From NCBI GenBank assembly GCA_051294905.1, contig CM119373.1, forward strand, positions 560,001 to 624,000: a stretch of DNA of 64,000 nucleotides, read 5' to 3'. The notes beneath the pieces were generated by a model. The model did no database searches and was not told where the DNA came from. It was given only the letters and a program-made list of their open reading frames with translations. Shown piece after piece: positions 38,461-62,128 of this stretch. The stretch comes from Botryllus schlosseri. Taxonomy: Eukaryota. The first letter of the stretch is position 1, and the number at the start of each line of letters is the position of its first letter. The position numbers were made by a program, and so were the translations under genes.

Positions 38461-39575
38461 TATCTGCAATCGGTATCAAAGTTTGGCTCGCTTGAAACAG
38501 GAATGCTTGATGTTTAAAAATAGGGTCAGAACTCACCTGAGGTTTGGAATTTGAAAGTTAAAATAATGGGTGATCTTTGAGTCTGGAAATCATAGTGCAA
38601 TCAGTGTTGGTCCAGATTAGTTGCACTGGGCAATGTCTGAATAATGTCCCGAATGAATTAACCTTGTGTACAGATTGAATACTGTGGGATAAATAGCCAG
38701 ATAATAGGACTTGAGTCAGGGTTTGACTCGGTTTATTTAAGTCACCTTTTCTCTGGTTTAGGTTGTCTTGACTTCGGAGATGTGAGTCGATGAGTGGCTG
38801 GATCGCGGCGCCTTGTATACGTTCTGAATTGTATAACCTGTGAGGTACAATCCATTATTGAATGATCGGGCGCTTATTGTATCACAAATGAGTTGAATTA
38901 CCTTGTCTAGACAGTGGTAAAGTGATATAGTCTGCTAGTAAGGTGTCTTGATTCTATAAGAGGCTAACAGTACTCATTGCACGCTTCGTGAACCTCTGAT
39001 ATGTATGTACCAGCGGTTATTAGTCTTTTTGGAAATAGTACTTATAGGTTGCACTATGTTGCATCCAAGTCTGTACTAAGCAGAGCAGTCCACCATCTTT
39101 TAATAACAACTACTCAACGCACTTAGTTTTAGGTCGCCGCCTATGATGTGTGTAATTGGCCAAATCCTTTTGGAAAGCCAGGCCGGAGAAGCTGAGCCAC
39201 TGAATTATTGACCCAAGGGCACAGTGTGTTTTTTGAGAGGTGTTTGTAGGTCCCTAGTTTTGAGGCCTAATAGTATTGACAATCAATGTGAACTTGAGGG
39301 ATTGAATTGGTCCCGATTTTGAGGCATCACTTCATCAGTGGGACTCCCCAATTCCCACTCTCCTACTTGAAATAGTTTACTCTGCCTTACCAAATTGTGG
39401 GAGAATATAAGCGTGAGTGTATATAATGAATTGGATGCCTTGCAAATGGAAAAGGCCAGATTGCACCAATTAGAGAAAGTCGTTTTTCCTGTATAACACA
39501 GCGGAACTTTGTTTGTGGGCTGACTGCTATTTTTCTTGTATTAAGATTGTGTAATTGTACAATTGTAAAACCAAA

Positions 39576-40067
39576 ATGGATTACATAGAGATCACTAACC
39601 AAATGGTTGGAGAATATGCGCATGAGTTAACTAGAATATATAATGAATTGGATGCCCTGCAAATGGAAAAAGACAACTGTCGTGAACAGATTTTCAAAAA
39701 TACGGCTACGATAATAAAGAGAGCGCTGAAAAACAGACAGCGTCTAAGTTGTCTGGCAATTGCTAAAGATAATAAAAAGGACTTGATGGATGACATCAGA
39801 TATATTCTGTTGGAAATTGAGGGTATGAAGGGGCAGGAACGAGTGATGATATACGAACTCCTGCGTGGATACATATCGTACCATACTGGGTTCGTGGTGC
39901 CAAAAAGTTCGTACAGAACGCGATCAAAAATTATGGAGATTTGGAAAACTAACGAACAAATAAACTGGACTTATGACCCAGAATTTGTGTGGGAAAAAGA
40001 GGAAAGAAGAAAAACGATTTTCTTGGTGATTCCACCGGAGGAAGACAAAGAAAATCAGGGATGTTAA
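39576..40067 (+). CDS. Intronless orphan ORF (~163 aa from ATG), paralog of 37804-38460
   Basis: MDYIEITNQMVGEY...RVMIYELLRG...; a decayed partial duplicate of its 5' end is at ~39389-39457. Confidence 0.55.
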   Translation: MDYIEITNQMVGEYAHELTRIYNELDALQMEKDNCREQIFKNTATIIKRALKNRQRLSCLAIAKDNKKDLMDDIRYILLEIEGMKGQERVMIYELLRGYISYHTGFVVPKSSYRTRSKIMEIWKTNEQINWTYDPEFVWEKEERRKTIFLVIPPEEDKENQGC

Positions 40068-46000: not shown

Positions 46001-47393
46001 ACAAGGCTGCGCAATTCCCACCTTATATACAAAAATGATTTTTCGAATAAGCATAGAAACTGTATTGTCTTTAGTGAAAGTCCACTCTACGTCTATTGTC
46101 TGTTGTGTTGAGATTATATTAAATCACACGGTATAAATGCAATTGAGGACGCACATTGTAGTGAATGATTTGTTTTAACGCCACAATCATTTACGAGAGT
46201 AATGTGGTCCAATTGCAATAGCCCTTCCGCCCGAAAAGTCGTCACAAGAAGGAGAAGATAGTAGCAAAAAGCGGGTAACTTTCCCAGACCCCCTGCCCCG
46301 TGAAAAACCACCCTATTCTCATTATTAAATGTTTTGCTAATCTATTAATTATATTTGAATTTTTAATTTACTTACATTTTTCCCTTTTTATTTGGTCCTC
46401 GCTACAGTCGGCTCCGCGAGATATTAGTGAGATATCTACGAGACATTTTTAAAACTGTTTTAAATTGCTGCTTATTTATTATATGTATATATATTATATT
46501 TTTTTTTTGAAATCCCGATCGTGACGAACGCACAATACATCAAGAATTTCATATAGATATGAAATTTACTATTATTGACTATATCTAAACCGCAAATGTA
46601 AATCTATGTAGAAGACATACTCCCATGCCTGCCTCTCGGCACCCCCCTCACTCCGTGGATACAAATGGCACCGCTTGGCACTTACCAAATGGTAAGAGGT
46701 GTCTTTTTACGAGTGTATGACGGTTTATATTAATTGAGAGAAATTAAGCCTATCAGGTGCTCACGTAATGGAGTTATGTAGATTGTAGCGGTCGCTGCAA
46801 CGGCTTGTTGCAAGACACGCTGGTATAGTGCTTGATTGGAGTCGACGCTACAGCTTACAGTTCCTGTTGTACGCACTAGTCACTGACTAATGACCGCTCT
46901 GAGTATACTCTTGCAATCCTGATCACACACGCAGATCCAAGGAGCTTTCTTTACTAGCACAGAACAGCCAAATAGTAGTAATTAGTGGTCAGAAACTTGT
47001 AGATTTACCAGGTTCAAATCATACTGCGGTTCGATAAGAAATAGAAAGAATAAATGAAGCGAAATGGAGCCAATTGTCTATCTTACGACTGAAGCGCGAC
47101 CGCGCCGACCTCTTATGCGGGCTCTGAGAACACGTGCGCCGCAGACTAACTGTGTCGTCACAGCTTGTGGTTTCGAGAGCAGGGATATGTTTAGATATCC
47201 CGGTTCGAGAGTGACCTATTTACGCTTTCGCGCACAACGGAATTGGGACAGTCATTTACATAGATAAATAATGAGCACGACTCTCGGCACTTCCTATCCA
47301 GTATAGTACTTTGGTTAACTATGGGAAAACCTCGCCTCCCACTTGACATGTTGTAAGTGTGCTGGAAGGGGTGTGACCGTTGATAATGCCTGT

Positions 47394-47411
47394 AAAAGAA
47401 AGGGGGGAAGG
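47394..47411 (+). promoter_or_regulatory. Candidate polypurine tract (plus-strand primer)
   Basis: AAAAGAAAGGGGGGAAGG, nearly the retroviral A-tract/G6 PPT pattern. Confidence 0.45.
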
Positions 47412-47994
47412 CTGGGATGGAGAGATATATTAAATTGTGTATATACGCGTATTGTATCATAGTATAATACCCACTAAGATAAAAATCCTAAAAAATAAAA
47501 ACCTATTGTGAAAAAAAAATATAAAATGAATTAATCTTGAAATATGTACATAAGATATAAAAACTTACAAAAGAGAAAACTAAAGATAAAGGTTATACGG
47601 AGCATAAAATCATCTTCAAAAAAAAAAAAAACAATAAAAGAATGCCTTTGTGGGGGGCAAGATGTTTCTTTTGCGTTTACTAGGTTGCTTCATTTTGAGC
47701 GCCGTCAGTGGCTGTTTTTTTATTCAGTCCGTGTTGCGCTCAACTGTAAGCTGCCGGAAACTGTTACCGCACGTGATACATGCAGCCGGTTGACCGCAAC
47801 AGCGCTAACATATGAGCTGTATAAAGCATGAACTCGACTTGCTCTGCGTGAAAAAAATACCATAGTAGTTGGACTGGACCTGGGCTTCGCACACTTAGAA
47901 AAATATCCAATCAAGCGAAAGTGGTCGATTTAAACTTTTCTATATGTGCATATTTAAGGTTTATTGCATCGATAACAAACGCTAAAATATTAGT

Positions 47995-48501
47995 ATGTGC
48001 CTGGGCTTGCGTTGCAAAGAACCCGAGACGGAGCACCTAATATCGAAACCTCAAAAAGAGGACTTTATCGATCACGGACTAAAGTCGTTGAAATTTCTCA
48101 TGACAACACAATCGTTAACAGATCATCTTTATGATATATTTAATGACGATTCCAGTCTACGATATCGCTATTGGGAAAGAAATAGCGGCTTCCAAACGTG
48201 CGACAGTGATTGGGCTGGTAAAGAACTCGATGAAAACGAGTGGGAAGATACTTACGCAGGGAGCCTTCATCCTGAAGGACCTCTTCAAATGGCGTTCGCA
48301 GATATCTGCATAAACTGGGTAAAAGCCTTGAAAATGGCGAACCCCGAGTGGGTAGAGATACTAAGTGATGAGAAGACTGAACGTAATCTCGTAAAATGGG
48401 TGATCTTCCCCGAAGTCCAGATTTATGCGTACGCGGAAACGCGTTCACTGTCGCTAGAGGAAGCTGACTGTCACTATATGGCACTGAAAGTATCGAAATA
48501 A
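47995..48501 (+). CDS. Orphan acidic 168-aa ORF, probable accessory gene of the retroelement
   Basis: ATG-initiated, intronless ORF in AT-rich DNA; stop overlaps AATAAA; lies 140 bp upstream of array 1. Confidence 0.5.
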   Translation: MCLGLRCKEPETEHLISKPQKEDFIDHGLKSLKFLMTTQSLTDHLYDIFNDDSSLRYRYWERNSGFQTCDSDWAGKELDENEWEDTYAGSLHPEGPLQMAFADICINWVKALKMANPEWVEILSDEKTERNLVKWVIFPEVQIYAYAETRSLSLEEADCHYMALKVSK

Positions 48502-48640
48502 AGCATTTCGATTCGATAAAATTTATCAAGTGCAGGAATTACGATAGTTAAAAGACCCCCGTATTTATGATAACGAAGATTGTTTGAAATCATAAGAATT
48601 GCGAAATTTTAAATATAAAAATAGGTTTAAAAAACTGGAT

Positions 48641-49088
48641 ATCCGTACCTTGATGTTAGATCCTGGATAAGACGGACAGATTTTCCAAAATGATAAGGAT
48701 AGTATCCACAATAGATGGATGGAGATCCGTACCTTGATGTTAGATCCTGGATAAGACGGACAAATTTTCCAAAACGATTAGGGCAAATATAACAGATGGA
48801 TAGATATCCGTACCTTGATGTTAGATCCTGGATAAGACGGACAGATTTTCCAAAAGTTTAGGGCTACTAATATAATGTACATCCGTACCTTGATGTTAGA
48901 TCCTGGATAAGACGGACAGATTTTCCAAAACGATTAGGGCTAATATAATTAATGTACATCCGTACCTTGATATTAGATCCTGGATAAGACGGACAGATTT
49001 TCCAAAATGTTAAGGACAATATCCACAATGGATATAGATCGGTACCTCGGTGGTAGACCCTGGTGAAAGACCGACAGATATTCCAAAA
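48641..49088. repeat. Array 1: six copies of a 50-bp hairpin-forming repeat separated by 25-34-bp variable linkers
   Basis: ATCCGTACCTTGATGTTAGATCCTGGATAAGACGGACAGATTTTCCAAAA at 48641, 48725, 48806, 48881 and 48958 (0-1 mismatch), plus a diverged copy at 49038-49088. Confidence 0.95.
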
Positions 49089-50824
49089 CGTTTAGGGCAC
49101 TACCATAGCGATTTACAACGTGACTACGTTGTGAATTGCTATGGAACTACATAAGTTGAATAAAAATGAATATTATAACCGGAAATAATAGGCCTATAAC
49201 ATTAGGAATACCTCAGGCCAGTACTGCTAATATAAAGACCTTAGAAAAGTAACCCATGGTTGAATTTGTCCACACATTCGTTTTTCGAAACTGATGTGCC
49301 GATGATTGAGTATGACATTAGAATAAGACCCGCCTTGTATGCACATTCGTTTCACGAAATGGATGTGTCTGACAAGTGCACTTATGGCACCATGATCAGT
49401 ACGTGCATGCAAATTATTGTATTTTGGCAACGTTACGATAACAAATGACGCAGTATTCTGATATGTGTGTATTTAATGTCCTCCCTGTGCGCATTGAGTG
49501 TATCTACAACTTATATGACAAGAAGAGCGTCTCAAAAACATGCCAATGATTTAATGACCTGCTCTCAATAAGACCATAAGACTGAATGAAGTGATGAAAT
49601 GGCATGAGAGTATCGATATGAACTGGACATTCTGTTGGCATTAATGAACGGCTTGGCGGTACCAACTCTAAAATTACTATTCGACAGTCCCGCAAAACTG
49701 CTCCCCTCGATAGAATCTAGGGCTTAATGAAGTCAAATGAACGAGATGAGAAGAAATCCGGCACCATGAATCACTGCTCAGCAAGGACCAGCGAACCAAA
49801 GGTTGGAACGTGCCAAACAATGCCCGCAAGAAGTCGCGTTGAAGACAGCGGAGAAAAGAGGCGATCAAGACGGCTGCAAAATCAAGAAGAGATACGCAGA
49901 AGGATCGTTTCATCAGCAAGGGAGTTGAAGAAATCGGGTTCGAAATAGATGCACAAGACAAAGTACCCAAGCGTACAGTTGCCAAATACGTCCTTTACAT
50001 ACGATGATGGAGGTCGGAGAGGGTGCGTTTGGCGAACAACGACATGAATCTATCTGCGGCATGATGACGAGACGCGTGAGTCATAACAGGACATTGATAT
50101 TTTCACGTGATGGTTACTTTGATGTATTATTGTATAGTGACGCCATTTTGTTCAAGCGCGGCCTTTACTGTATCTTTGATCAATACCATCAGGTTGCTTT
50201 AAAATGGCGCTAACATTTTATGTCGTAGATATGTGTATGGGTTAGTGAACATTTAATATGTGAATAATTGGTTGTTACTACAGTAATATGATAGCGAATA
50301 CTATGCCTGTAGGCTTTACTTAGGCGTTATACACCGACCACGCCCTATGTTAGTGTCGGGACCCTTCACCCTAGCGGGATAGAAGCTTAGGATTAGAAAT
50401 GGTTAGGGATTTCTTCAGAAAACCCGTAAAAGGGACCCTGGGTATCTAACAGTGTTCGAATAAGCAACACCTTTGTTAAGGGTAGTATCATCAAGTGCAC
50501 TTTAATTGGCATATGGCCATGTTAATCGGGTCAACGATACAAAGTCCTTAATGTTGGAACCTCCCGGAGTTACGCGTTATAACTAGCTACGCACCCTTAG
50601 ACTAAGCTAGGAACCTCTACCTTATTGGAGCATGTGTAGAGTTAAAGATTCGTGGTAAATCAGATCTATTATTTGTGAGACACGGTACATACGAATGAAT
50701 AAAAAGCTTATATACACCGATACAAAGGAACCCAGAGATATAACAGATAGTGATTAAAACATTGGATCGTGCATGACTATTGTGATTGAATGGTGTGTCA
50801 TGTAGCGATATGTCATGAATGAAC

Positions 50825-51053
50825 TTTATGGCAGGAAAGGCCGACACATTCATTAGATGTGTAAACTAACCTCGGAGCTGCTTTACGGCAGGACAGGCCG
50901 TCACATGCATTATATGTGTAAACAAACCTATGAGCTATTTTACGGCAGGAAAGGCCGTCACATTATTTATATGTGTTAACAAACCCTGAAAGATACCACT
51001 TCGGCAGGAAAGGCCGTCGCATAGTTTATATGCGAAAACAAACCTTGGAGTAT
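50825..51053. repeat. Array 2: four ~57-60-bp units, each with two adjacent hairpins
   Basis: Consensus tttACGGCaggaaagGCCGT-CACAT(n7)ATGTG-taaacaaacc; units start at about 50825, 50882, 50939 and 50999. Confidence 0.9.
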
Positions 51054-51180
51054 TTAAAATACATTTAATCGTGCATGAATATGAATAGGTTTAAGCTTTA
51101 TCTTGTGTTATAATTGATGGATATTTTATATGCCAATTTAACCGAGTTTTGCTTAGATACCTCATTCTGTCTGCATGATA

Positions 51181-51262
51181 ATGATTGGAGTATTTGGTTG
51201 TATTAAAGGCTTAATTACACGTTATATAAGACTAGTTTAGAACTCTGGACCTAAGGGTCATT
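51181..51262 (+). promoter_or_regulatory. Candidate LTR core promoter (inverted CCAAT, TATA, Inr-like)
   Basis: ATTGG at ~51184, TATATAA at 51223-51229 and TCATT at 51258-51262, about 200 bp upstream of the PBS. Confidence 0.45.
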
Positions 51263-51438
51263 GTCTGATACTGAAAGATACCACTACTGCAACTACTGCT
51301 GCTTCAATCAACACCCACGGACGTCGTCTGGACAATACAGCGCAATAGAAGGTCAACTCCTCACCGCGAAATAATCCGAACCAAGTGTGGACGACTCGCA
51401 TAACAATCGTTATCGGAGCTGCACTATAAAGACATTAT

Positions 51439-51456
51439 TGGAGCCATCGGCGAGAT
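51439..51456 (+). promoter_or_regulatory. Primer-binding site, tRNA-Thr-like
   Basis: TGG-A-GCCATCG-GCGAG-AT has the layout of the reverse complement of CCA, a U discriminator, a 7-nt acceptor strand, a 5-nt T-stem and the T-loop end. The GCGAGAT part matches the T-arm of vertebrate tRNA-Thr(TGT) as I recall it. It lies just upstream of ORF0/gag. Confidence 0.65.
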
Positions 51457-51485
51457 TATTCCGGTGAAAAAACGGTGACCTATTA

Positions 51486-51821
51486 ATGTGCGCGAAGACG
51501 ACCCTCGTGAGAATCGTGCTCGGAGTGACGGTAATCACTTCTGTTATATCTCTGCTAATAACGTTGGCGTCGGTCTACGTACACCTCGTGCCAGTATTCT
51601 TTCCCACGACAAACCCTGAAGGTCTCTCTAACGACGTCACTACAACGGCCGAAGCACTTGCTGTCCCACGTAACGGATTTGCTGTGGCAATCGCCAACGG
51701 AACCGAACCAGTTATCTTCGGAAGGTATTCCGTACCTACAACGCAAGGGCGAGTGATCGAAAACAACACAACCACGTCCGTGCGTAATCTGTTTCGAAAC
51801 GGTACTTCCCATAACCAATAA
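51486..51821 (+). CDS. ORF0: 111-aa predicted type II membrane glycoprotein
   Basis: N-terminal hydrophobic stretch IVLGVTVITSVISLLITLASVYV, then a Thr-rich tail with NGT, NNT, NTT and NGT sequons. Confidence 0.65.
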   Translation: MCAKTTLVRIVLGVTVITSVISLLITLASVYVHLVPVFFPTTNPEGLSNDVTTTAEALAVPRNGFAVAIANGTEPVIFGRYSVPTTQGRVIENNTTTSVRNLFRNGTSHNQ

Positions 51822-51874
51822 AAGGTACGGGACTAAGATTCAGACAATCAACCGTTACATAAAATTTGCGAAAA

Positions 51875-54739
51875 ATGCTAAAATTATTCAAAAAAAGGAA
51901 TAAGTCGTCGAAGGCGGCAGGCGAGCTCGAGCAGGGCATCAAGCTACTGAAAGCAACACAAAAACGCCACGAAGACGTCAGACAACAAGAAAGACAGATG
52001 GCAAAAGACGTGGCTGAACAAACGAAGGTACTAAAAGAAGTCAAATCAACACTGCCCGAGACAATGAAGGGGCTGGAAAAGGCCAAGAAAGAAGTCAGGC
52101 GAGCTCAAGCCGACCTCAAAGCAGTATGCGACGCGACTTCGAAGGTTAGCGGGAAAGTCTCCACTGAAGTCCTCAGTGAGATTCTGAAATCGGAATTTGA
52201 ACTGGGCAAAGCCCATGCCCAAGTGGTTGGAGATAAACCACCACCACCTTCTTCCCTGTCCGTAATGGCTACAACACCTCCCCCGGCGTATGATCCACCC
52301 GTTGGGAAATCGTCCAGGGCAACAGCGCCACTACCCACGTTTACAGTCCAAAAGGGCCTGGATTGCCATACCGTAACTACAGTCTACCCTACGTTGCCCG
52401 GTTCCAAGCCGAGGTCGCTATCAGATTCTCATCCAAAAACGACTCCATGTTTTCCGGTTTGGAATGGAACACGCCCCGAAAGACGAAGGGGGAACCCAGT
52501 CGATACACCCAGTCTATTTCAGCTGAGTAGAACCGGAACAGACACTGGACCAGATTCAGACGAGGACTATGCGCACGCTCGAGAACGGCTCGGAGCATGG
52601 CTCGACGATCAACGAGCAGCCGAAGGAACCCGGACCAGGACACAAGGTGCGGCCAGCACTCCAACAAGGCGCGTTACCTTTCAGGAAGGGAGAACGAACT
52701 ACCGACAAGGCGAAAGCGAAGAGCCCGAAGATTCGGGGGAAGATACTGACGCCCAATTGGACAGACTAGGCAGACAAATAGCGGAGGCACGGGAGGCCAT
52801 TCGGGAAACCACGCGGACGCTTCAGCGGGACTCTGGTCGGCCCAACCCAAGCGAACCCGCAGAGGATATGTCGGACATTGCTGAATACCTCAGATTACCT
52901 CGATACGCATCTACCCCAAGAGAAAGCGAAGGTAGATCGAGACTTCCGCGAGAACAACCGCCAAATGATGCCGTGAACCCGGTGTTGACTACGCCCGAAA
53001 GGTTCCAGTCGGAAAAGGAGATGCTGCAGCTAATGATGGACCCTGGGGATATGCCACTTCTAAAGTGGATGGCTAATACGATGAGACGTATACGACACGG
53101 TGAGGGCGGCACTGATACTGATATCATCCTGGCTAATGCCATGCAGAAGAAGTTGAGAAGTGCGGGTCGCCTCAAACAAGCTAATCAGCTAGGGAATTTC
53201 TTCAACACCAACTCGGGAAATGCAAAATGGGTCTCGGTCATGAAATCATTGTCGCTATCCAACCCGCAAGGCTTGGTAAACAATGAAAAGGTCATCAACG
53301 ATTTCCGAAGGAACTATCAGTGGGAAGACGAACCTCTTCCGCTGTTGAATAGCGCCCTAAAACAACTAGAGATAGATATGGAAGCTGAAATCAAAGAAAA
53401 TCCGGATGGGCTGCGACTCTTCCGCAACCTAAGGCAACGATTACCAGAAGCACTTAGGCTGCTGATGCGGGGATGGGATAGCAGGTCCTGGCAAGAGGTG
53501 GCGGAGGATTTACAGCTGTACTGGAATTCTGAGTTTTTGGATGAACAAGAGGTACGTCCCACCGCTCGAGAGACCAGAAAAACGCGTGAAACAATGTCAC
53601 CCCTACCACCTGTGCACATATATAATGTTCAGCCTACAGGACCCATGATGCACAGTTACCCTACTCACGGGGGTGGAAATGGACGAATAAACACCCCTTC
53701 CCCACCGACTACACCGTCACTTCCAATGGTGCAACCACCCTCACCCCAACAACCTCCGCACATGATCGGGGGGACACCACCCAGACCGTCGGGGAATATG
53801 TCGCCACAGCAGCCCGTCGGCGTCGGGCAAGCGTCGCAGCCACGACGTGGCCCTCCTCGCGGCGCAAAGACCAACCGTTTTCCTACCAATGTAATGAGTG
53901 GAAATAGGTTTGGCAGACAGGGCCCGGCTCCCAGGGCCAAATCTTCCCGAACACAAAATGGGCGCAACGCATCGAATGGACCCAACGTTCCACCAACACG
54001 GAACTCCAGATCTCCTCAAACAAGTCAGGGGCCAAGTACTTCGAACCGGAGACCTCGGATGGTGAATACGCAGGACTCTGGAATTGGCGGGGACAGCCAG
54101 GAAATCACGCCGGCTAGCAGTCAGGAAGCCCTCCGCATCGCGGAGAGCCAAGGTGAGAGGTATAATTTTCTTGGGAACCCCAACATTTTCGCCCCTCTAG
54201 GCTTGTATCTGAACCCCCCTCAGGGGCAGTCCTTATCCGTATGTTATTATTGTAAGGCCCCGGGACACCAATCCCGTAATTGCGTGGCAAAATTCGTGCT
54301 TTGGCTAAATGAGGAGGTGATTGCCAAGGATGATACTTTAGGTTGGGTAGTTCGCAAACGAATACGACCGGTACCTCCGCGCGTAAAGGAGTCCACAAAA
54401 CGCAACTGGGAGCCTTTCCTTGCAAGGAATAACATATTGACGGTCCCGGATCTCGACCGGTACCTTGCCACCCAAGGTTCTCCCTCTCTGACACAGAGAA
54501 CTGCCTTGTGCGAGGCCTATTATGACTCTAGGCCAAAAAACAGAGATAGAACCCACTGGCATGATAGGGACCAATGGGGTCCTCAGGGACCGGCTGTACA
54601 ACCGAACCAGGGCAATAGCCGAGTGGCCTGGACGGAACCGCTATATCGTCGTCCTCCACGTCGCTATGACGCCTCGCACTGGACGGATGAGGAACTTGAA
54701 CAAGGCTTGAGACTCTCAAAAAACGACTGGGGGTGCTGA
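51875..54739 (+). CDS. gag: Gag-like polyprotein (~954 aa from ATG)
   Basis: Basic N-terminus, coiled coil, PPxY late-domain-like PPPAY, helical capsid-like middle, Pro/Arg-rich linker and CCHC knuckle CYYCKAPGHQSRNC. Directly precedes pol. Confidence 0.85.
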   Translation: MLKLFKKRNKSSKAAGELEQGIKLLKATQKRHEDVRQQERQMAKDVAEQTKVLKEVKSTLPETMKGLEKAKKEVRRAQADLKAVCDATSKVSGKVSTEVLSEILKSEFELGKAHAQVVGDKPPPPSSLSVMATTPPPAYDPPVGKSSRATAPLPTFTVQKGLDCHTVTTVYPTLPGSKPRSLSDSHPKTTPCFPVWNGTRPERRRGNPVDTPSLFQLSRTGTDTGPDSDEDYAHARERLGAWLDDQRAAEGTRTRTQGAASTPTRRVTFQEGRTNYRQGESEEPEDSGEDTDAQLDRLGRQIAEAREAIRETTRTLQRDSGRPNPSEPAEDMSDIAEYLRLPRYASTPRESEGRSRLPREQPPNDAVNPVLTTPERFQSEKEMLQLMMDPGDMPLLKWMANTMRRIRHGEGGTDTDIILANAMQKKLRSAGRLKQANQLGNFFNTNSGNAKWVSVMKSLSLSNPQGLVNNEKVINDFRRNYQWEDEPLPLLNSALKQLEIDMEAEIKENPDGLRLFRNLRQRLPEALRLLMRGWDSRSWQEVAEDLQLYWNSEFLDEQEVRPTARETRKTRETMSPLPPVHIYNVQPTGPMMHSYPTHGGGNGRINTPSPPTTPSLPMVQPPSPQQPPHMIGGTPPRPSGNMSPQQPVGVGQASQPRRGPPRGAKTNRFPTNVMSGNRFGRQGPAPRAKSSRTQNGRNASNGPNVPPTRNSRSPQTSQGPSTSNRRPRMVNTQDSGIGGDSQEITPASSQEALRIAESQGERYNFLGNPNIFAPLGLYLNPPQGQSLSVCYYCKAPGHQSRNCVAKFVLWLNEEVIAKDDTLGWVVRKRIRPVPPRVKESTKRNWEPFLARNNILTVPDLDRYLATQGSPSLTQRTALCEAYYDSRPKNRDRTHWHDRDQWGPQGPAVQPNQGNSRVAWTEPLYRRPPRRYDASHWTDEELEQGLRLSKNDWGC

Positions 54740-54761
54740 TTGATCCGGTAAATCAGCTCCC
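54718..54761 (+). promoter_or_regulatory. -1 ribosomal frameshift signal (gag-pol)
   Basis: A_AAA_AAC at 54718-54724 in the gag frame, a 6-nt spacer, then stem GGGuGCUGAUU/AAUCAGCuCCC (54731-54761). Pol is in the -1 frame and open from 54711. Confidence 0.85.
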
Positions 54762-57700
54762 AGACAATTTGTTACCCCAACACGCAAAAACTGTACATAA
54801 TGCTTCTTTACCCCTATTTACATTTCTTGATACACCGGATAACCCACTACAGCCAGACTTTACGGAATTATTCGGCGGTCGGCTCTTGTATTTGGTTGAC
54901 ACCATAACGGGAACTAAATTCTTGGCCGACACGGGAAGCATCCCCAATTTAATAATGAAAAATGATGTAAAAACCATGTATCCCAAGAGCTGGGAGGAAC
55001 GGCAACCCTTAGATATGAAATCACGCGGTATAGGGGGCTCTTCCCACGTTGACTCCTTGGTAATTATTGAATTCGATGGACTACCGGTTCCATTTGCGAC
55101 CGGGAAAGGAGTCCCTCTCAATATTATTGGGTTGAAATGGATTGATCAGGTACAACAATTACCGAACATAGCGACTGAATTTAAAACTCCGTCTAATGCA
55201 AACGAAGAGTTGTCTTTAGTAACACTACATGACGAGATCTCGTGCGATCAACGGGATGGAACCAGAGTCGGAAACAGTCCTTGCAACGCTGCTACCGACG
55301 ATGGGTTGATGGAAGCTGCGAAACAGATAAGCGTCGAGTCGGCGCGCCGGTCATCATCGCCGGCCGTCGCCGCTGGCGCAAGTGTCGAGATGGCAATCGC
55401 CACTGGCGCGGACGACGGGTTGGTAAATACCACTAACGTCGAAAAAAACCTACGGGAAACCCCTAGTGTTGGGACAGGTAGCTCTGCTGGCACTAGGCAA
55501 GAGAGTGTCGGGTCAGGTCGCCCTGCTGGCACTAACCAAAGACGTGTCGAGACAGGAATCCCTGCTGGCACCATTAATGAAGACGTCGAGCGCGGAATCC
55601 CGGCTGACGTAAATAAGGACCTGCACGAGAAAACTGGTCCTGAAAGCTCACGTGGATGCACTTGTTCGAATAACTGTAACAATTCGGCCCAAAGATGCAT
55701 GACGACAGCCACAGTTATGAGTAATTTCCCAAAAGGTTCAAACGAAGCAGCTATTGTCGGTCAACCGGACGCATGTCCAGGCGCATCCGACAAGGAGTCT
55801 GGGGATTTTAAGATGCGCGTCTCCCCAGAAACAGGGCCCCCGGCGGAGAATGAGTCCGTCGGCGTGACGGTAGGTGTGGGCACGCACCGAGCTCAGAGGT
55901 CAGATTGGATAGGTAGGGAATCCCCGCTGACAACGAAGAACCTCGCCCTCTCTCCACCAACACCAAAACCCCGTTTATCACGTGATTCGCATCGGCCGAT
56001 AACTGGTCCTCTTACCACGTACACATTACAACAAGGCACCAGTCCCAGCGTTAAGACGGAACTCGAAAGTCTCTGTGCACAATCGGTAGCACTGGCAAAG
56101 CTTCCATACAAACCTCCTGATCTAACGACCCCGGAAAATACCATCATTGCCGACGAAGTTTGGAAAGCCGTCTATGAGCCTTTCGCAGCTGAACTAGAGG
56201 ACCTGCGTGGCCACTTACGAGCCCCTCAAGCCATGAAGTATAAGTGTGACATAGAACTCAGGGATCCCTCGACTAAGCCTTTTGTTTCTGGACCTTATAA
56301 TCTGAAAGGGGAGGGCCAGGCGAAGGCGTTAAAAGAAGCAGTGGACAACTTCTTGGACCTGGGAATAATTGAGCAAGGATTTGCCGAATGGAAACTGGCC
56401 ATCTTTGTCGTCCCACAAAAAATGAATGAAAGACAGAAGCAGGAGGACGGGTGGAAGCAATCATGGAGAGTCGTACAGAATCTCCAGCCCCTGAACGCTG
56501 CTATAAAGTCAATCGAAGTCCCTCCACCCTTAGTACCAGATGTAAAACAACTCGCCCAGGGAAGAGAAGTGCTCTCCCTGCTGGATTTGAAGAAAGCCTA
56601 TTTCCACATGGATATCACGGAAAGATCCAAGCAATATGTGGGGATAGCAATCAAAGGAATGCACGTAAGATGGCGCAAGATGGTGATGGGATTGAAGACC
56701 GCGGTTGCTCTTTGGAGCGCTAACATGCAAGAATGCGTGGTGAAGCCCATCACGGAAAGGTACCGTCAACACATGAAGCAAAATGGCCGATCGGATGAGG
56801 AGAATGCGACGCCTATGGAGGCCTACATAGACGACATTTTCCTTAGCACAAAAACGGTAGAGGACCATTTGCTTCTCCTACGACTGGTATTTGAACAACT
56901 TGCAAAAATGAAATTGACGCTCAGCATCAATAAATGCTTTATTGGAAAACGGAGAGTAAATCTGCTGGGAGCGACCCTGACGGGGAAAGAGATCGAGGTG
57001 CAGCCCGAGAGAATAAGGGCGCTGCGAGAGCTCTCACCACCCCGAAATATATATGAATTACGGGGATGGATCGGCGCTCTACGCTACATCTCGGAGCACA
57101 TCCCAGAGTTGAGCTTGAAGTTGGCAAAATTTGATGCACTAACGGGAAAAGTCCCAGCGACTCGAGGTAAAATGACACCGGTACTTTGGACCGAAGAATT
57201 AATGCAGGACTACAAGACAGCTCAAGCCGCACTCGACAGTACCAAGGTACTGTATCATCTGGATTCAGGACTTCCCATTTTCGTGGAAACTGATGCATCA
57301 GATGTAGGGTTTGGCTCCGTAATTTTTCAAACGGATGTGGGGGAAAAACCCCCTTTCAAGGAGGTGTATCCGGTCGCTTACTACAGTCAAAAGTGGGTAA
57401 CCCCGACGGCTAAAGCCTATGACCCATGCACCAAAGAGCTTAAAGCCCTGAAGGATTCAGTGGAGAAATGGCAGTCGATGCTGCGCGCCTTACCCTTCAC
57501 TATAATTACTGACAACATGGGAGTTTTTGGACTCCTGAAAAGAATGACAGATGAGGCAAAAAACCCGAGCCCAAAGCCATTGATTCAAAGGTGGCTAAAT
57601 CATCTCTCCGGATTCCAGATAAAAGAGGTAATCCATTTGAGCACGTTCCAAGTGTTTACTTCAGATGGATTGTCCCGATCCTATTGGATGGAAATGGCTG

Positions 57701-58266
57701 CTAGAGATGATGACCCTCATGTCTGGGCCACCCTCCCGGGACACAAAGAATCTCAACAAGAGAAAATACAGCGAACCCTGATGTTCCACTGTCGGCACGA
57801 GTATTGCGCAAACTCTGTCGATGGATACCACCCCTGGGAAGAAGTTCGCGGAATAATCAAAGACAAGCTGCGACAAGACCTCGGGATAACTGAAATCGAG
57901 GATATCATGGCCAATTGCGACAGGGCAGTGATGTCCAGTGAAGGCCTGGCTGCAGCGCACGGGCACACCAAAGGGATGCCACCTCCGTACGAAGAGTACC
58001 TGGGCGATGACATGCTGTATCACATAACGACGGATGAAGGTGCCCGTCAAATCATTGATACCCAACTACACAGAATGAACCGACGGTTCATCCATTTGAG
58101 TAAGATTAACACAACGAAAGCACGTGGGCGTAGAACGGTTCTGAGAATGAGGGCGAGCGACCTCAGAAGGATAGGTCTACGACTCTTACAGTCGCATAAT
58201 CACGAGGTAATACTGTGCGAAGGGCCAATACCGTCAGAGTATATACTGATGGAAAACCTGGCCTAG
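54733..58266 (+). CDS. pol: Pol: aspartic protease, long low-complexity linker, reverse transcriptase, RNase H and a C-terminal Tpt1/KptA-like domain; no integrase
   Basis: FLADTGS (PR); LLDLKKAYFH, MVMGLK and AYIDD (Ty3/Gypsy-like RT); VETDASDVGFG, KELKAL, IITDN and DGLSR (RNase H); CRH...HGHT...LYHIT...MNRRFIHLS...IPSEYI (Tpt1-like). Confidence 0.92.
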   Translation: MLIDPVNQLPDNLLPQHAKTVHNASLPLFTFLDTPDNPLQPDFTELFGGRLLYLVDTITGTKFLADTGSIPNLIMKNDVKTMYPKSWEERQPLDMKSRGIGGSSHVDSLVIIEFDGLPVPFATGKGVPLNIIGLKWIDQVQQLPNIATEFKTPSNANEELSLVTLHDEISCDQRDGTRVGNSPCNAATDDGLMEAAKQISVESARRSSSPAVAAGASVEMAIATGADDGLVNTTNVEKNLRETPSVGTGSSAGTRQESVGSGRPAGTNQRRVETGIPAGTINEDVERGIPADVNKDLHEKTGPESSRGCTCSNNCNNSAQRCMTTATVMSNFPKGSNEAAIVGQPDACPGASDKESGDFKMRVSPETGPPAENESVGVTVGVGTHRAQRSDWIGRESPLTTKNLALSPPTPKPRLSRDSHRPITGPLTTYTLQQGTSPSVKTELESLCAQSVALAKLPYKPPDLTTPENTIIADEVWKAVYEPFAAELEDLRGHLRAPQAMKYKCDIELRDPSTKPFVSGPYNLKGEGQAKALKEAVDNFLDLGIIEQGFAEWKLAIFVVPQKMNERQKQEDGWKQSWRVVQNLQPLNAAIKSIEVPPPLVPDVKQLAQGREVLSLLDLKKAYFHMDITERSKQYVGIAIKGMHVRWRKMVMGLKTAVALWSANMQECVVKPITERYRQHMKQNGRSDEENATPMEAYIDDIFLSTKTVEDHLLLLRLVFEQLAKMKLTLSINKCFIGKRRVNLLGATLTGKEIEVQPERIRALRELSPPRNIYELRGWIGALRYISEHIPELSLKLAKFDALTGKVPATRGKMTPVLWTEELMQDYKTAQAALDSTKVLYHLDSGLPIFVETDASDVGFGSVIFQTDVGEKPPFKEVYPVAYYSQKWVTPTAKAYDPCTKELKALKDSVEKWQSMLRALPFTIITDNMGVFGLLKRMTDEAKNPSPKPLIQRWLNHLSGFQIKEVIHLSTFQVFTSDGLSRSYWMEMAARDDDPHVWATLPGHKESQQEKIQRTLMFHCRHEYCANSVDGYHPWEEVRGIIKDKLRQDLGITEIEDIMANCDRAVMSSEGLAAAHGHTKGMPPPYEEYLGDDMLYHITTDEGARQIIDTQLHRMNRRFIHLSKINTTKARGRRTVLRMRASDLRRIGLRLLQSHNHEVILCEGPIPSEYILMENLA

Positions 58267-58353
58267 GATGCGGGGTGACGCAGCCGTCGAGATTTAACTG
58301 CTGGGAAGTGGTCGATCGTTAAAGGAACTTGTACTTTTTTATTTACTTTTCAG

Positions 58354-59315
58354 ACTCCTTCGTCGAGGATTACAATGTGCTGCGATTGGTGGAAATGGGG
58401 GCCTTACCCCATACACGCGATTGCATCCCTTTTTTAAGAAGCCGGGGTCTACTGAGAAAACAAATGATATGCAGAAAATGCTCAAGATGGATGAAGGAAG
58501 AACGGACTACCGAGAGAATTTCGGACGGATGGAGATGGAGGTGCTCTCCTTGTAAAACCACTGCTACTATCCGCAAGTACTCGTTTTTTTCAAAAAGCAA
58601 ACTTGGGTTACCCCAGCTGCTAGTATTAAGTTATTTTTGGGCCCAAGACTCTCTACAAATTCAAATGGCCCATGAGGCCGAGATCAGCGCACGTACGACG
58701 GTAGAATGGTCTGGACAACTGCGCAAGATATGCTCTGCTTACATACAAAGACGTAAACGGAAATTAGGCGGGGTTGGCCGAACTGTAATCCTGGACGAAA
58801 CTCACTTGGCCAAACGGAAGCGGGCAGCTGGTAGCGGCCAACAAGCAGTGAAGGCTGTCTGGGCTTTCGGTGGCCTGGACCGAGGTACCGGTGACATGTT
58901 TGTGGAGATCACATCTGACCGAACAGCGGACGTTCTGAAAAGACTTATAATTAAGAATGTAGCCAGAGGTTCGACCATTCTGACAGATGGCTATCCATCG
59001 TATAAGGGCATTGAAAGTTGGGGGCAGGGCTATAAACATGGATCAGTTGACCACGCCACCACGTTCAAATCTGCCCAAGGCGTTCATACCAATGATTTGG
59101 AGGCATGTTGGGGCTCGCTGAAATATCATTTACACAGGTCGAGGGGTTTAGCACGCCATTTACTAGCCGATTACGTGGGGGAGTGGCTTTGGAAGAGAAG
59201 ATACCCCCGTAAAAAAAGGTTTGGGGCTCTGTTGAGAACGATATCGCTTGACCCACGGTATTGCAATGACGACCCTAGTGATCAGATCCCTGACGCACAA
59301 GGTGATTCTCATTAA
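58354..59315 (+). CDS. IS1595/ISXO2-family (Merlin-type) DDE transposase, probably expressed from a spliced RNA (first in-frame ATG 58395)
   Basis: Zn ribbon CRKC...WRCSPC, RKYSFFSKSKL, catalytic ILDET / ILTDGYPSY / HTNDLEACW, H..VDH and Y..EWLWK. Preceded by the acceptor tttttttatttacttttcag ending at 58353. Confidence 0.9.
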
Positions 59316-59431
59316 AGCCCAGAGAAGCCTTTAGCAACAAAGAAAGGAAGTTAACAACAGACCGGACAATGTATGTTTCTATTTTTTTGCAGACAATAAT
59401 TAAATCATATTCAATATAAGATAATAAGCTT

Positions 59432-59572
59432 ATGCATTGGGGACCGACGCCTATACCGTCTCAATGGACTACGCTATTTATATTCTGCCTGTCGTTATTG
59501 GTTTCAGTTGCACACCTGATTGCTTGTTGTCTGAGGCGGCGGGCTTCGTGCCGAGATCCGGAGATACTGTAG
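59432..59572 (+). CDS. 46-aa single-pass membrane peptide overlapping the env start (not in ORF track)
   Basis: First ATG after the acceptor at 59392: MHWGPTPIPSQWTTLFIFCLSLLVSVAHLIACCLRRRASCRDPEIL*. Confidence 0.4.
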   Translation: MHWGPTPIPSQWTTLFIFCLSLLVSVAHLIACCLRRRASCRDPEIL

Positions 59573-62046
59573 CAAGCAGGGCCCGAACCTTTACTCAGGG
59601 TACACTGGGTGAATTCAACGGCTCACTACCTGACGACTGGGTTCGGCTAAATGATACGCAATGGGAAACCTACGACCTGATGAGTGCTTTCAATAAGACA
59701 GGGAAACGTCATGTGTACAGGCGACCAACACTGTTTCATAGTGAATCTTTTGGTTACGTGGTGGCCGAACGGGTGTCATTGCAGCAAATGGCGTTCCCAC
59801 AAGGGCGATATTGGTCGAATGTACGGGACTTTGAACGGACCTGCTTATGCCAACGAAAACTAGGCCAAATTTCGCCAAACCTAACCTTTACCGTTCTTGA
59901 CCAGGAAACTGTGTTCGTACGCCCAATAGGACATGGGGTCAGGATACGGTGGTTTTGGGACGAGACCTGGGAAACGTCTAGGCAGAAATGGAGGGCTGGG
60001 GCTGAAGTGGACGAGTGGTCCCATGTGAACGATACCTTAATGGCAATGACCAAATTCAAGTTGATCATGTTACGAGCCTTCGCGGGGTTCTCAGCGGTGA
60101 GATCGACTTGTAGGACAGAGCGCATGACAAAAGATACATGGAACTGGACTCAGGTTGATCGATGGAATAAATATAACGCCAGTAGCTCGAGCATTGCGCA
60201 TTGTTGGCCGAGTAACGTGCTTTGGGCCGGAACATATTCAATAACCTACGACTGGAAGACTCGCACGGCAGACAAACGCCTGGTGTCGTCAACGCCAGAT
60301 TCACGCGGCACCTGTGTTTTTTGTGATATCACAGGGATAATTTCTGCTTTAGAACCGAGCCAAGCAGACATAATAATACAAGAAATAGATACCATTCGTG
60401 CGGAATCCGCATGGGAACGTAAGTGGCATCCTATGCAAAACTGCCGAGCTACGTCAGGACTGATCACCCAGGAAAACTATGAACACCTTTGGCAGGTCGT
60501 CCATCACTCACCAACCTTATCCGGTAAGGGCCTACGCAACATCGTGCATCCTCCATCATGTAATTTTTGGCCGACGCAGAACAAGAGTAAGTGGGGGGAC
60601 TTGCCCACCTCGAATTTTCCTCGAAGGATTAGATGGATACAGGCGTCCTTATCGAACTGGAAGGGTCAAGATGACCAAGGGCTTGGTTGGGATAACTTGT
60701 TCGACGGACCTGCCGAAAAACCAGCCGCACCCAACGACATACTGCCTATTTGGCGAAAGCACCCCTCTTTGGTTGCGGATGATCCTAGGTGTCAGGAACG
60801 GATAAGTGGTAGCGACTGTCAAGATCCGGTCGGGGGCCCTCAGTTGAAGGCGGCCTTTTGGGATCAGGTGCACTTCGACCCTGAGCGTAACCGACCCCGT
60901 TTTCCGGGAGGTCCTATAGAAATAAAAGGAGACATCGCACATAATAATAGGAGGATTGGGGGGAAACGTAGACGTAAACGATTCCTCTTCGGCCTACTGG
61001 CACTAATCTTTGCCGTCGTGTCAGTTGTCGCTGTTGTCGCAACTGTATCTTCCCAACTGCATAAAGAAACTGAGGACCTGAGTCATCAAATCAACGACAG
61101 AATGATCCAGGCTACGGAGAGATCAACCGAACTAGGGAAAAAGATAAACGAACTCTCCCAAATCCAAACAGCGCAACAACAAAAGCTGGACCGATTGGTT
61201 GAAAACATGGAGGTAAGAGCATCACTGACGGACAGACGATTGGTGTGGATGCAGAAAATGGTGGAGAAAAACCGACAAATGATATTGCGGCAGGCTACCA
61301 TCACCCTCGCTCAGTTTCAAAGTTTCACAGAGGTGAGCGACGCTGAACTTGCCGTCGACCGCTTGGTCATGAAAGAATTAGCTAATTTGACCGGAAAGTC
61401 CATATTCGATTCGAGTAAGGTCTATCTTACACAGATTCGGAAAGGGACATTGCAGGTGCGGGAGCATGCTCAGCAGTTATCCGCCTATAAAGATACGTAT
61501 GTAAATGAGACAAACGACATCAGTAGTAAACTCCGAGCCAACAGGCTTCGTCTGAACCAGGCTCAAGAAGAAGTGGATCTCAGTATACAGGTATGGAAGG
61601 AAGACCTGAACCGGAGTGTGTTCGTAAATATCTCCGACTGGCGCTACGAGAATGTGTCAGTAGCCCCCTTCGAGTTTGCTGGGGGGGAAGAATTTATGAA
61701 GAACTTTGGCAAAACGATAGAAGAGATGGCGAACGGTGCCGGAAGTCTGATAGAATCGGTCGGAAACGGTGCCGGTAACCTCCTACAAAAGGGACTTGGA
61801 GCAATCGGAGGTCTGTTTGGAAGTGGACTGAGTGGCATTTTTTCGGGCCTCGGATCCATCCTCCTCCCCTTGGGACTTGTACTGGGTGCGGTGATTATCT
61901 TATTCTGTTGTGTCAGGTATCACAGCCTATGCTGTCCCAAGTTAAAATCTAGCGTACAAAGGCGGAACACTAACGCCCAACTTGCAATGTATATAACGTC
62001 GACACCATCTTACACCGTAAAGCCCAGGCCCATAGTGCGACGGTAA
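59464..62046 (+). CDS. env: Envelope fusion glycoprotein (class-I-like)
   Basis: Signal-like N-terminus MDYAIYILPVVIGFSC, many N-glycosylation sequons, furin site KRRRKR (60964-60981), fusion peptide FLFGLLALIFAVVSVVAVV, heptad repeats, Gly-rich pre-TM region, TM ILLPLGLVLGAVIILF and a Cys-Cys tail. Confidence 0.88.
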   Translation: MDYAIYILPVVIGFSCTPDCLLSEAAGFVPRSGDTVASRARTFTQGTLGEFNGSLPDDWVRLNDTQWETYDLMSAFNKTGKRHVYRRPTLFHSESFGYVVAERVSLQQMAFPQGRYWSNVRDFERTCLCQRKLGQISPNLTFTVLDQETVFVRPIGHGVRIRWFWDETWETSRQKWRAGAEVDEWSHVNDTLMAMTKFKLIMLRAFAGFSAVRSTCRTERMTKDTWNWTQVDRWNKYNASSSSIAHCWPSNVLWAGTYSITYDWKTRTADKRLVSSTPDSRGTCVFCDITGIISALEPSQADIIIQEIDTIRAESAWERKWHPMQNCRATSGLITQENYEHLWQVVHHSPTLSGKGLRNIVHPPSCNFWPTQNKSKWGDLPTSNFPRRIRWIQASLSNWKGQDDQGLGWDNLFDGPAEKPAAPNDILPIWRKHPSLVADDPRCQERISGSDCQDPVGGPQLKAAFWDQVHFDPERNRPRFPGGPIEIKGDIAHNNRRIGGKRRRKRFLFGLLALIFAVVSVVAVVATVSSQLHKETEDLSHQINDRMIQATERSTELGKKINELSQIQTAQQQKLDRLVENMEVRASLTDRRLVWMQKMVEKNRQMILRQATITLAQFQSFTEVSDAELAVDRLVMKELANLTGKSIFDSSKVYLTQIRKGTLQVREHAQQLSAYKDTYVNETNDISSKLRANRLRLNQAQEEVDLSIQVWKEDLNRSVFVNISDWRYENVSVAPFEFAGGEEFMKNFGKTIEEMANGAGSLIESVGNGAGNLLQKGLGAIGGLFGSGLSGIFSGLGSILLPLGLVLGAVIILFCCVRYHSLCCPKLKSSVQRRNTNAQLAMYITSTPSYTVKPRPIVRR

Positions 62047-62128
62047 CCAATCTCCGACGAAGCTCTCTTAACCCTCATGCTTAACTAAACACAACTATAT
62101 GAATTACAGATTTTCACGTTAAACTAAT

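What the first reader, a model, noticed from the sequence alone, without database searches (positions are those of the whole stretch)
50825..51053. Second array: four double-hairpin units with covariation just upstream of the TATA box
Seen: each unit has stem A (ACGGC-aggaaag-GCCGT, near-invariant loop) abutting stem B (CACAT-n7-ATGTG, loop different in every unit). In unit 4 stem B becomes CGCAT/ATGCG, a compensatory pair. A conserved aaac(a/t)aacc(c)t tail follows, and its CCT could pair with loop AGG. The 15-mer ctgaaagataccact (50986-51000) recurs at 51271-51285. Inference: a repeated structured RNA module (three-way junction or pseudoknot, e.g. nuclease-blocking or protein-binding), unrelated in sequence to array 1.
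Basis: partly seen in the sequence, partly recalled or inferred. Interest (0 to 1): 0.7.

Follow-up and report, generated by a model that had tools for sequence, protein, structure and literature searches.

The report
Hairpin repeats beside a retroelement leader
Four repeats of a small two-hairpin fold, probably RNA, sit just upstream of a DNA copy of the sea-squirt spliced leader inside a retrovirus-like mobile element; three of the four spacers between them copy short downstream stretches, which hints at a role in how the element copies itself.

Summary
The four units are real (57, 57, 59 nt apart). Their shared abutting hairpins beat 5000 of 5000 column shuffles, but the single compensatory pair is not significant alone, stem A is weak in context and the pseudoknot has no covariation. 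The 'TATA box' is not supported: it overlaps an 11-nt match to a DNA copy of the tunicate spliced leader (SL) at 51184-51208, and other copies lack it. New here: three of four spacers start right after the tail CC and repeat downstream sites exactly (10, 15, 11 nt; null maximum 8-9), one being SL bases 2-12. One RNA library covers the array about 14-fold more than other bins; strand unknown. The array lies upstream of gag, RT-RNaseH-Tpt1, an IS1595-like transposase and env-like ORFs. Best reading (0.35): a plus-strand RNA module at which the element's reverse transcriptase switches template, the spacers being landing pads or footprints. Rivals: exonuclease block, protein-binding platform, DNA enhancer, neutral repeat. 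No Rfam match. The scan had already noted this element family, SL-headed retroelements and a 12-unit covarying array elsewhere in this genome.

The parts
50823..50871 (+). Unit 1: stem A 50829-50832/50840-50843, loop A 50833-50839, stem B 50845-50849/50857-50861, A-rich linker, tail CC 50870-50871
   Evidence: other copies differ from this one at 50829 and 50844
50880..50928 (+). Unit 2 (loop A has one A-to-C change)
50937..50985 (+). Unit 3 (a 2-nt deletion in loop B at 50968 is seen in part of the copies of all 4 runs)
50996..51044 (+). Unit 4 with the double change in stem B (51019/51033)
   Evidence: a contig of run X7 covers 50970-51205 with one other letter and one gap
50872..50881 (+). 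Spacer 1, exact 10-nt repeat of 51413-51422
50986..51000 (+). Spacer 3, exact 15-nt repeat of 51271-51285
51045..51055 (+).
51184..51208 (+). DNA copy of the tunicate spliced-leader exon, with one extra A; not followed by GT
   Evidence: matches 'Chordata 1' in PMC3795323 Table 1; 71 RNA reads carry the library's template-switch oligo before 51183 and reads leave the window into unrelated sequences after about 51216
51271..51285 (+). Downstream partner of spacer 3, preceded by A
51413..51422 (+). Downstream partner of spacer 1, preceded by A
50698..50703 (+). AATAAA, 125 nt before the array (candidate poly(A) signal)
   Evidence: 5% of positions in 27000-52000 have one 100-160 nt upstream
50754..50820 (+). 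Block before the array, present again in diverged form at 51054-51122
51223..51230 (+). TATATAAG, the only TATAWAWR match between 48700 and 52200
48636..49102 (+). Array 1 (six units of about 81 nt), different sequence, 138 nt after an AATAAA; context only
51486..51821 (+). 111-aa ORF, first ATG after the SL copy; stop codon inside AATAAA
51866..54739 (+). gag-like ORF with zinc knuckle (E 5e-4, just under the Pfam cut-off)
54733..58266 (+). pol-like ORF: RT, RNase H, Tpt1/KptA-like domain; no integrase domain detected
58329..59315 (+). IS1595/ISXO2-like (Merlin-type) DDE transposase
   Evidence: E 9e-13
59437..62046 (+). Envelope-like ORF (basic cleavage-like site, hydrophobic segments by eye; no Pfam match)

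Best explanation
Each unit is a compact plus-strand RNA module: hairpin A and hairpin B stack end to end, and an A-rich linker brings the tail CC(U) back to the GG in loop A, giving a small three-stemmed pseudoknot whose 3' edge is the CC. The array belongs to the element's reverse-transcription cycle. The element has a reverse transcriptase but no integrase and, by earlier notes, no LTRs, and its host replaces RNA 5' ends with the SL. A cDNA that runs off such a 5' end needs a matching sequence to re-anneal to. The 10-15 nt right behind each CC is identical to a downstream leader site (in one case the SL itself), so the module would pause or hold the enzyme next to a landing pad, or at least be the hot spot where such switches happened and left the spacers as footprints. 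Shown: units, pair-preserving variation, spacer repeats and their register, SL copy, RNA coverage in one library. Inferred: strand, pseudoknot, any role of the enzyme, that 51270 and 51412 are or were RNA 5' ends.
For: Pairing constraint: 0 of 5000 column shuffles; no broken pair in 4 of 4 units, simulated chance 0.0003-0.0009 (this counts shared changes more than once). The junction base pairs in 4 of 4 units, with stem A in two and stem B in two; the loop-B closing position reads U-G, G-U, U-U, A-U, which pairs in 3 of 4 units on plus and 1 of 4 on minus. Spacers: exact matches of 10, 15 and 11 nt in 3 of 4 spacers, none reached by 300 random windows each; expected anchored matches 1.5e-4, 5e-7, 2.4e-4; all three start right after CC, all three partners follow an A. 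SL copy. Contigs exist with the SL end joined to 51352 (X1, 60 letters on the short side) and spacer 4 joined to the SL (X7, 23 letters; one X23 read). Precedent for short direct repeats plus a stem-loop in place of LTRs: hepatitis B virus DR1/DR2 and epsilon (PMC7694973, passages). A 5-bp G/C stem with an adenosine-rich loop is typical of small pseudoknots (PMC5449628, passages).
Against: Spacer 2 has no partner downstream (best match 7 nt, reached by 68 of 300 random windows). Spacers of array 1 show no comparable repeats (best 6-10 nt, AT-rich). Local duplication is evident here (block 50754-50820 recurs at 51054-51122), so the repeats may be duplication debris. No RNA start is seen at 51270 or 51412; depth there is near zero. 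Unphased variants at 50873 and 51414 go together in X1 (83% and 73% of depth) but not in X7 (100% and 25%). The joints rest on single contigs flagged 'between: not known' and could be deletions or splicing. Stem A is unstable in context; the pseudoknot would have only 2-3 pairs and shows no covariation. The RNA library is unstranded in practice and 297 of 305 reads fit only in part.
Confidence: 0.35

Rival explanations
1. Tandem block against 5'-to-3' exonucleases (xrRNA-like). After cleavage at the upstream poly(A) signal the modules stop Xrn2/Xrn1, keep Pol II running and preserve the downstream RNA until it gets an SL.
For: Compact tandem fold; both arrays begin 125 and 138 nt after AATAAA (background 5% each, range chosen after the fact; 14% for 20-200 nt); an xrRNA placed after a poly(A) site stabilises downstream RNA and raises Pol II occupancy (PMC6938672, passages); operons face this problem (PMC2777434, passages); SL joined near 49873 in 3+3 RNA reads shows trans-splicing on element RNA.
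Against: Defining features of classes 1-3 and of the coremin motif are absent; no Rfam match; frameshift-type pseudoknots of this size did not stall Xrn1 (PMC10321173, passages); RNA reads extend upstream of the array (12 reads at 50749) and no pile-up of ends was listed; Ciona operons mostly lack intercistronic DNA and AATAAA (PMC1488885, passages); does not explain the spacer repeats.
Confidence: 0.2
2. Multivalent protein-binding RNA platform (packaging by the Gag zinc knuckle, nuclear export or control of trans-splicing) that marks RNA still carrying the region upstream of the SL.
For: Invariant purine-rich loop A beside a freely varying loop B; the array has 7 ATGs whereas 51184-51485 has none (chance about 0.002), so RNA with the array would translate poorly; retroviruses use repeated RNA elements for export (PMC7551171, passages); three TGCATG words flank the array (their reading as Rbfox sites is recalled).
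Against: The AAGACA of a CTE is absent; two of the three TGCATG words come from one local duplication; no binding data; does not explain the spacer register.
Confidence: 0.15
3. DNA-level enhancer repeats upstream of a promoter (U3-like or like the palindromic repeats of large invertebrate DNA viruses, recalled); the palindromes are sites for dimeric proteins.
For: Position 170-400 nt upstream of TATATAAG at 51223; TTTAYGG in 3 of 4 units and AGGAA in 3 of 4 (their reading as Hox/Cdx and ETS sites is recalled); weak folding energy.
Confidence: 0.15
4. Neutral minisatellite; palindromes are kept symmetrical by template-switch repair, and the spacer matches are duplication leftovers.
For: Unit number varies between copies (joints 50907-51027 and 50929-50875); local duplications; one double change is within chance.
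Against: 14 of 17 minimal changes fall outside the 18 stem columns and none breaks a pair; in the expressed diverged copies the array tail is kept while the flanks differ.
Confidence: 0.1
5. Tandem self-cleaving ribozyme of an unknown class.
For: Tandem small folds in retroelements are often ribozymes (recalled); the pol ORF carries a Tpt1-like domain that acts on RNA ends.
Against: No Rfam match down to E 10 in 44000-64000; by eye no hammerhead, HDV-like, twister or pistol core (motifs recalled); no RNA end pile-up listed.
Confidence: 0.05

Closest known systems
Hepatitis B virus epsilon with DR1/DR2 (PMC7694973, passages)
   Same: LTR-less, integrase-less reverse-transcribing genome in which a stem-loop and short direct repeats of the RNA 5' end guide template switches; here an 11-nt repeat of SL bases 2-12 lies 140 nt upstream of the SL copy.
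   Different: Four modules instead of one, each with its own spacer; no terminal-protein domain detected; the 5' end is host-supplied; nothing here shows priming.
Three-stemmed H-type pseudoknots, e.g. coronavirus frameshift element (PMC11262651, passages); small luteoviral pseudoknots (PMC5449628, passages)
   Same: Order stem 1, loop, stem 1', abutting extra hairpin, A-rich linker, pairing back to the loop; 4-5-bp G/C stem 1.
   Different: Non-coding (stops in all three plus frames), stem 2 only 2-3 bp, four bases between stem 2 and stem 1', tandem.
Exoribonuclease-resistant RNAs: classes 1-3 and coremin (PMC12397905, 10.1101/522318, PMC10321173; passages)
   Same: About 45-50 nt, tandem, non-coding, one conserved and one variable loop (as in coremin).
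   Different: No three-way junction, no T-loop with long pseudoknot, no YGAD loop; hairpins abut and the linker follows hairpin B.
Constitutive transport element of betaretroviruses (PMC4330393, PMC7551171; passages)
   Same: Repeated RNA unit in a non-coding part of a retroelement.
   Different: No AAGACA internal loop, no long two-fold stem.
SL-headed retroelements and giant Merlin-ended retrovirus-like elements noted earlier by this scan in the same genome (unchecked AI notes)
   Same: Same gene set; DNA copy of the SL in front of retro genes; a covarying 12-unit array in another giant element.
   Different: Those notes, as shown to me, do not mention spacers that repeat leader sites; I could not compare sequences.

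Membership tests
Class 1/2 (flaviviral) xrRNA | Three-way junction plus double pseudoknot forming a ring | tested here: not met
   Feature from PMC12397905; units have two abutting hairpins and no closing helix shared by all four; no Rfam match
Class 3 (plant virus) xrRNA | P1-P2 stem-loop with T-loop L2B in the apical loop, long pseudoknot, AGY motif before its 3' strand | tested here: not met
   Loop A is 7 nt, pseudoknot at most 3 bp, linker has no AGY
Coremin xrRNA | Hairpin 1 with YGAD loop, conserved 9-nt spacer, then hairpin 2 | tested here: not met
   Loop A is AGGA(A/C)AG and the hairpins abut
Any xrRNA (functional definition) | Stalls Xrn1 without protein | not testable with these tools
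   Needs an in vitro digest
Three-stemmed H-type pseudoknot | Extra hairpin inside the loop that crosses stem 1 | tested here: met
   Hairpin B abuts stem A in 4 of 4 units
Three-stemmed H-type pseudoknot | Stem 2 actually forms | tested here: inconclusive
   AGG/CCT possible in 4 of 4 units, no variation; folding tools used do not model pseudoknots
-1 frameshift pseudoknot | Lies in overlapping ORFs after a slippery site | tested here: not met
   All three plus frames have stops within the array
Constitutive transport element | AAGACA in symmetric internal loops | tested here: not met
   0 occurrences in 50800-51100
Known small ribozymes in Rfam | Match to a family model | tested here: not met
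   Two weak unrelated hits in 44000-64000 at E up to 10, neither in the array
Hepadnavirus DR1/DR2-epsilon system | Short direct repeat of the RNA 5' end upstream of it | tested here: met
   51045-51055 equals 51185-51195
Hepadnavirus DR1/DR2-epsilon system | Polymerase binds the stem-loop and primes by protein priming; switches occur at the repeats | not testable with these tools
   No terminal-protein family among the Pfam hits; no direct test
Tunicate SL RNA gene | SL exon followed by GT donor and Sm site | tested here: not met
   Exon copy is followed by GC; donor consensus from PMC3795323
TATA-box core promoter at 51051 | TATAWAWR consensus kept in other copies, start site 25-30 nt downstream | tested here: not met
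   No consensus match (consensus recalled); differs in X23 and X9; no start listed there

The most novel reading that the evidence does not exclude
The array is a repeat-spacer cassette of strand-transfer acceptors that replaces the LTR R region in an LTR-less, transposase-integrated retroelement living in a trans-splicing host: each structured repeat holds the reverse transcriptase, and each spacer is kept identical to one of the element's alternative RNA 5' ends, one of them the host's spliced leader.
Probability: 0.15. Interest if true: 0.85.

Novelty: new variant of a known kind. Interest (0 to 1): 0.55.

Why it matters
How a retrovirus-like element without LTRs or integrase completes reverse transcription, and how any retroelement copes with a host that cuts off and replaces RNA 5' ends, are open questions. 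The array gives a 50-nt RNA and three exact 10-15 nt pairs that can be tested in a tube. Even under the rival readings it would be an uncatalogued structured RNA motif in an animal mobile element. If the repeats are only duplication debris, interest falls to that of a conserved hairpin minisatellite.

Tried and rejected
No genome is held for this window, so other copies were seen only through one read lay, which showed 40 of 548 substitution rows, 12 of 69 indel rows, 15 of 23 joints and 24 of 314 loose ends; phased covariation could not be counted. Run search: no RNA holder listed among indexed runs. Pattern scan of viral contigs: 8 loci, 0 of 8 with hairpin B and tail. Tandem pattern in prokaryote genomes: 1 locus, a 72% GC repeat without hairpin B. 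Relatives of pol: 5 close proteins of 114 hits; loci in viral contigs 9, all 22-24% identical; metagenomes 6, of which 2 close but beginning inside gag; prokaryote genomes 0. Descriptor scan of the window: the 4 units plus 4 unrelated single hits in host sequence. Look-ups of earlier findings by sequence found nothing. Sigma-70 and terminator scan is not meaningful for this host. Rejected: coding role, frameshift signal, SL RNA gene, CTE, the TATA box at 51051. A recalled likeness to the CTE sequence and to a luteoviral loop motif could not be confirmed letter for letter (one search found the motif in none of the 12 listed papers). Paper searches listed nothing on this element type or this motif; the library lacks most subscription papers, and I opened no supplements.

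Full report
Observation. In a gap-free 45-column core, 9 pairs (4 in stem A, 5 in stem B) hold in 4 of 4 units; 14 of 17 minimal changes lie outside the 18 stem columns, and the 3 inside keep the pair (one C-G to U-G, one double change A-U to G-C). Random placement of the same numbers of changes leaves all pairs intact with chance 0.0003-0.0009, a figure that counts shared changes more than once and uses stems chosen from these units; shuffling whole columns, which avoids that circularity, gave two abutting shared hairpins of this size in 0 of 5000 trials and at any spacing in 1 of 5000. Against a strong structure: a single double change arises in 27-38% of simulations, folding z-scores are -0.3 to -1.7 per unit and -1.36 for the array, and stem A has low pair probability in context except in unit 4 under a span limit, while stem B is firm in 3 of 4 units. 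Two details favour a single plus strand: the base between the stems pairs in 4 of 4 units, moving from stem A to stem B, and the first and last bases of loop B pair in 3 of 4 units on plus but 1 of 4 on minus. The AGG/CCT pairing is possible in all units but invariant, so it is untested.

Context. Downstream lie a 111-aa ORF, a gag-like ORF with a zinc knuckle, a pol-like ORF with RT, RNase H and a Tpt1/KptA-like domain but no integrase hit, an IS1595-like DDE transposase and two large envelope-like ORFs. Five database proteins are close relatives of the pol C-terminal part (37-46% identity; 4 of 5 carry the Tpt1 Pfam mark). Earlier unchecked notes describe this as a family of giant elements with inverted ends and 8-bp target duplications, without LTRs, in a sea-squirt genome; I confirmed the gene set and found no LTR-like repeat within the window but could not see the ends. 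All 4 laid runs cover the array and its flanks, so it is part of a multi-copy element present under three organism labels.

The TATA box is something else. In the raw RNA run X23, 71 reads carry the library's template-switch oligo (recognised from memory) before 51183, and reads at this place leave the window into unrelated sequences. The stretch 51183-51208 equals the 'Chordata 1' spliced leader of PMC3795323 Table 1 with one extra A (passages). These reads are host trans-spliced mRNAs, not proof that this copy starts a transcript. The copy is followed by GC, not GT, so it is not an ordinary SL RNA gene. The supposed TATA box at 51051 overlaps an 11-nt match to SL bases 2-12 and the start of a diverged duplicate of the block before the array; loose ends in X23 (16 reads) and X9 keep the unit tail and the first ten bases of this spacer, with one change in X23, and then differ. 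A consensus TATA (TATATAAG) lies at 51223. There is no ATG from 51184 to 51485 (chance about 0.002), while the array has 7.

The spacers. Starting exactly after the invariant tail CC, spacer 1 equals 51413-51422 (10 nt), spacer 3 equals 51271-51285 (15 nt) and spacer 4 equals 51185-51195 (11 nt); each partner follows an A, and each is the longest anchored match in the whole window on either strand. None of 300 random windows per spacer reached these lengths (maximum 8-9). Spacer 2 has no such partner, and array 1 shows nothing comparable. The order is nested: the first unit matches the farthest site, the last the nearest. Single contigs join the SL end to 51352 (X1) or 51382 (X7) and spacer 4 to the SL (X7, plus one X23 read); the tool flags these 'between: not known'. 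Variants at 50873 and 51414 would alter spacer 1 and its partner at the matching base; they are both common in X1 but not matched in X7, and they are unphased, so this is inconclusive.

Transcription. X23 depth, both directions summed, averages 19.6 in the three bins over 50756-51127 and 1.4 in 26 other bins (the SL bin left out); the same comparison in the contigs of X9 gives 36 and 19. Array 1 has no reads. Caveats: one library, about 6% read, both directions equally covered, 297 of 305 reads fit only in part, so many come from diverged copies in which the array may simply be the part that still aligns; DNA carry-over is not excluded. SL is joined near 49873 in 3+3 reads from 2 starts, showing plus-strand element RNA upstream of the array in some copy. 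No pile-up of molecule ends was listed.

How it may work. I commit, at 0.35, to a role in reverse transcription. An element with RT but no LTR still has to move its cDNA from the RNA 5' end to another template position, and in this host the 5' end is often the SL. Hepatitis B virus solves the LTR-less problem with a stem-loop and short direct repeats (PMC7694973, passages). Here a structured unit whose 3' edge is the CC is followed by a copy of a leader site. Either the spacers are acceptors kept by selection, or the enzyme pauses at the structure's edge and switches there, leaving 10-15 nt duplications. Both versions predict that the CC is paired. All of this paragraph is inference. The exonuclease-block rival (0.2) rests on both arrays starting 125-138 nt after AATAAA and on the precedent in PMC6938672 (passages); it fails every known class test and small frameshift-type pseudoknots did not stall Xrn1 (PMC10321173, passages). 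A protein-binding platform (0.15), a DNA enhancer (0.15), a neutral repeat (0.10) and a ribozyme (0.05) remain.

Comparison and novelty. It works most like a small three-stemmed pseudoknot coupled to DR-type repeats; it is not a member of any xrRNA class, CTE, frameshift signal or Rfam family that I tested. Searches listed no paper on this motif or element type; I saw those results as listings and abstract starts only, the library is partial, and no supplements were opened. Papers read as passages: PMC12397905, PMC3795323, 10.1101/522318, PMC3691228, PMC10321173, PMC5449628, PMC2777434, PMC4330393, PMC7551171, PMC7694973, PMC11262651, PMC6938672, PMC1488885; none was read whole. Motif readings (Hox, ETS, Fox, Rbfox, TATA, ribozyme cores, Tpt1 residues) are recalled. 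The scan had already noted the element family, SL-headed retroelements and a 12-unit covarying array on other pieces of this genome; those notes are leads, not support.

Verdict. Real, probably functional, probably plus-strand RNA; mechanism open. New variant of a known kind; interest 0.55. The boldest reading, a repeat-spacer cassette of strand-transfer acceptors that includes the host leader, has probability about 0.15 and interest 0.85.

Noticed in passing
window 48636-49102: Array 1: the outer stem TCCGT/ACGGA becomes TCGGT/ACCGA in unit 6, and short contig pieces of X7 and X9 suggest a third form; loop CCTTGAT can pair with the tail ATTAGGG and TGGA with TCCA, a possible double pseudoknot (by eye). 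No RNA reads in X23.
   Followed up: partly
window 57720-58200 (pol C-terminus): Tpt1/KptA-like domain fused to RT-RNase H (E 5e-5, below the Pfam cut-off); the RH pair is invariant in 6 of 6 aligned proteins but a later arginine of the usual motif (recalled) is not conserved. Role unknown.
   Followed up: partly
window 51817-51875: AATAAA overlaps the stop codon of the 111-aa ORF and is followed by TTCAG 30 nt before the gag ATG, an operon-like junction; AATAAA also overlaps the stop of the ORF at 47995-48501.
   Followed up: no
window 51202-51207: The extra A in the SL copy creates ATTAAA, a variant poly(A) hexamer; about 10% of X1 depth lacks it.
   Followed up: no
window 50624, 51184, 51412, 51437: Four AT(C/T)GGAG words, the start of the SL, cluster around the array; 12 in the whole plus strand.
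   Followed up: no
window 49870-49873: SL joined to element RNA here in 3+3 reads; the ORFs that follow are short in this copy.
   Followed up: no
window 54733-54739 and 62123-64000: gag and pol overlap in different frames; a second large glycoprotein-like ORF runs off the window end.
   Followed up: no
window 37804-38460 and 39555-40067: Two ORFs of 218 and 170 aa without Pfam match that share a stretch like 'MIYELxRG', possibly paralogous accessory genes.
   Followed up: no
window 55465-55571: 39-nt tandem repeat (2.8 copies) inside the pol ORF, between the N-terminal part and RT.
   Followed up: no
window 1-25300: Dense host minisatellites of 35-42 nt and a dispersed repeat of about 150 nt; inverted 208-nt arms at 19536-19743 and 23199-23406.
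   Followed up: no
window 49040-49159: Lowest folding z-score of the scan (-5.7 on plus, 30 shuffles), at the last unit of array 1 and its flank.
   Followed up: no
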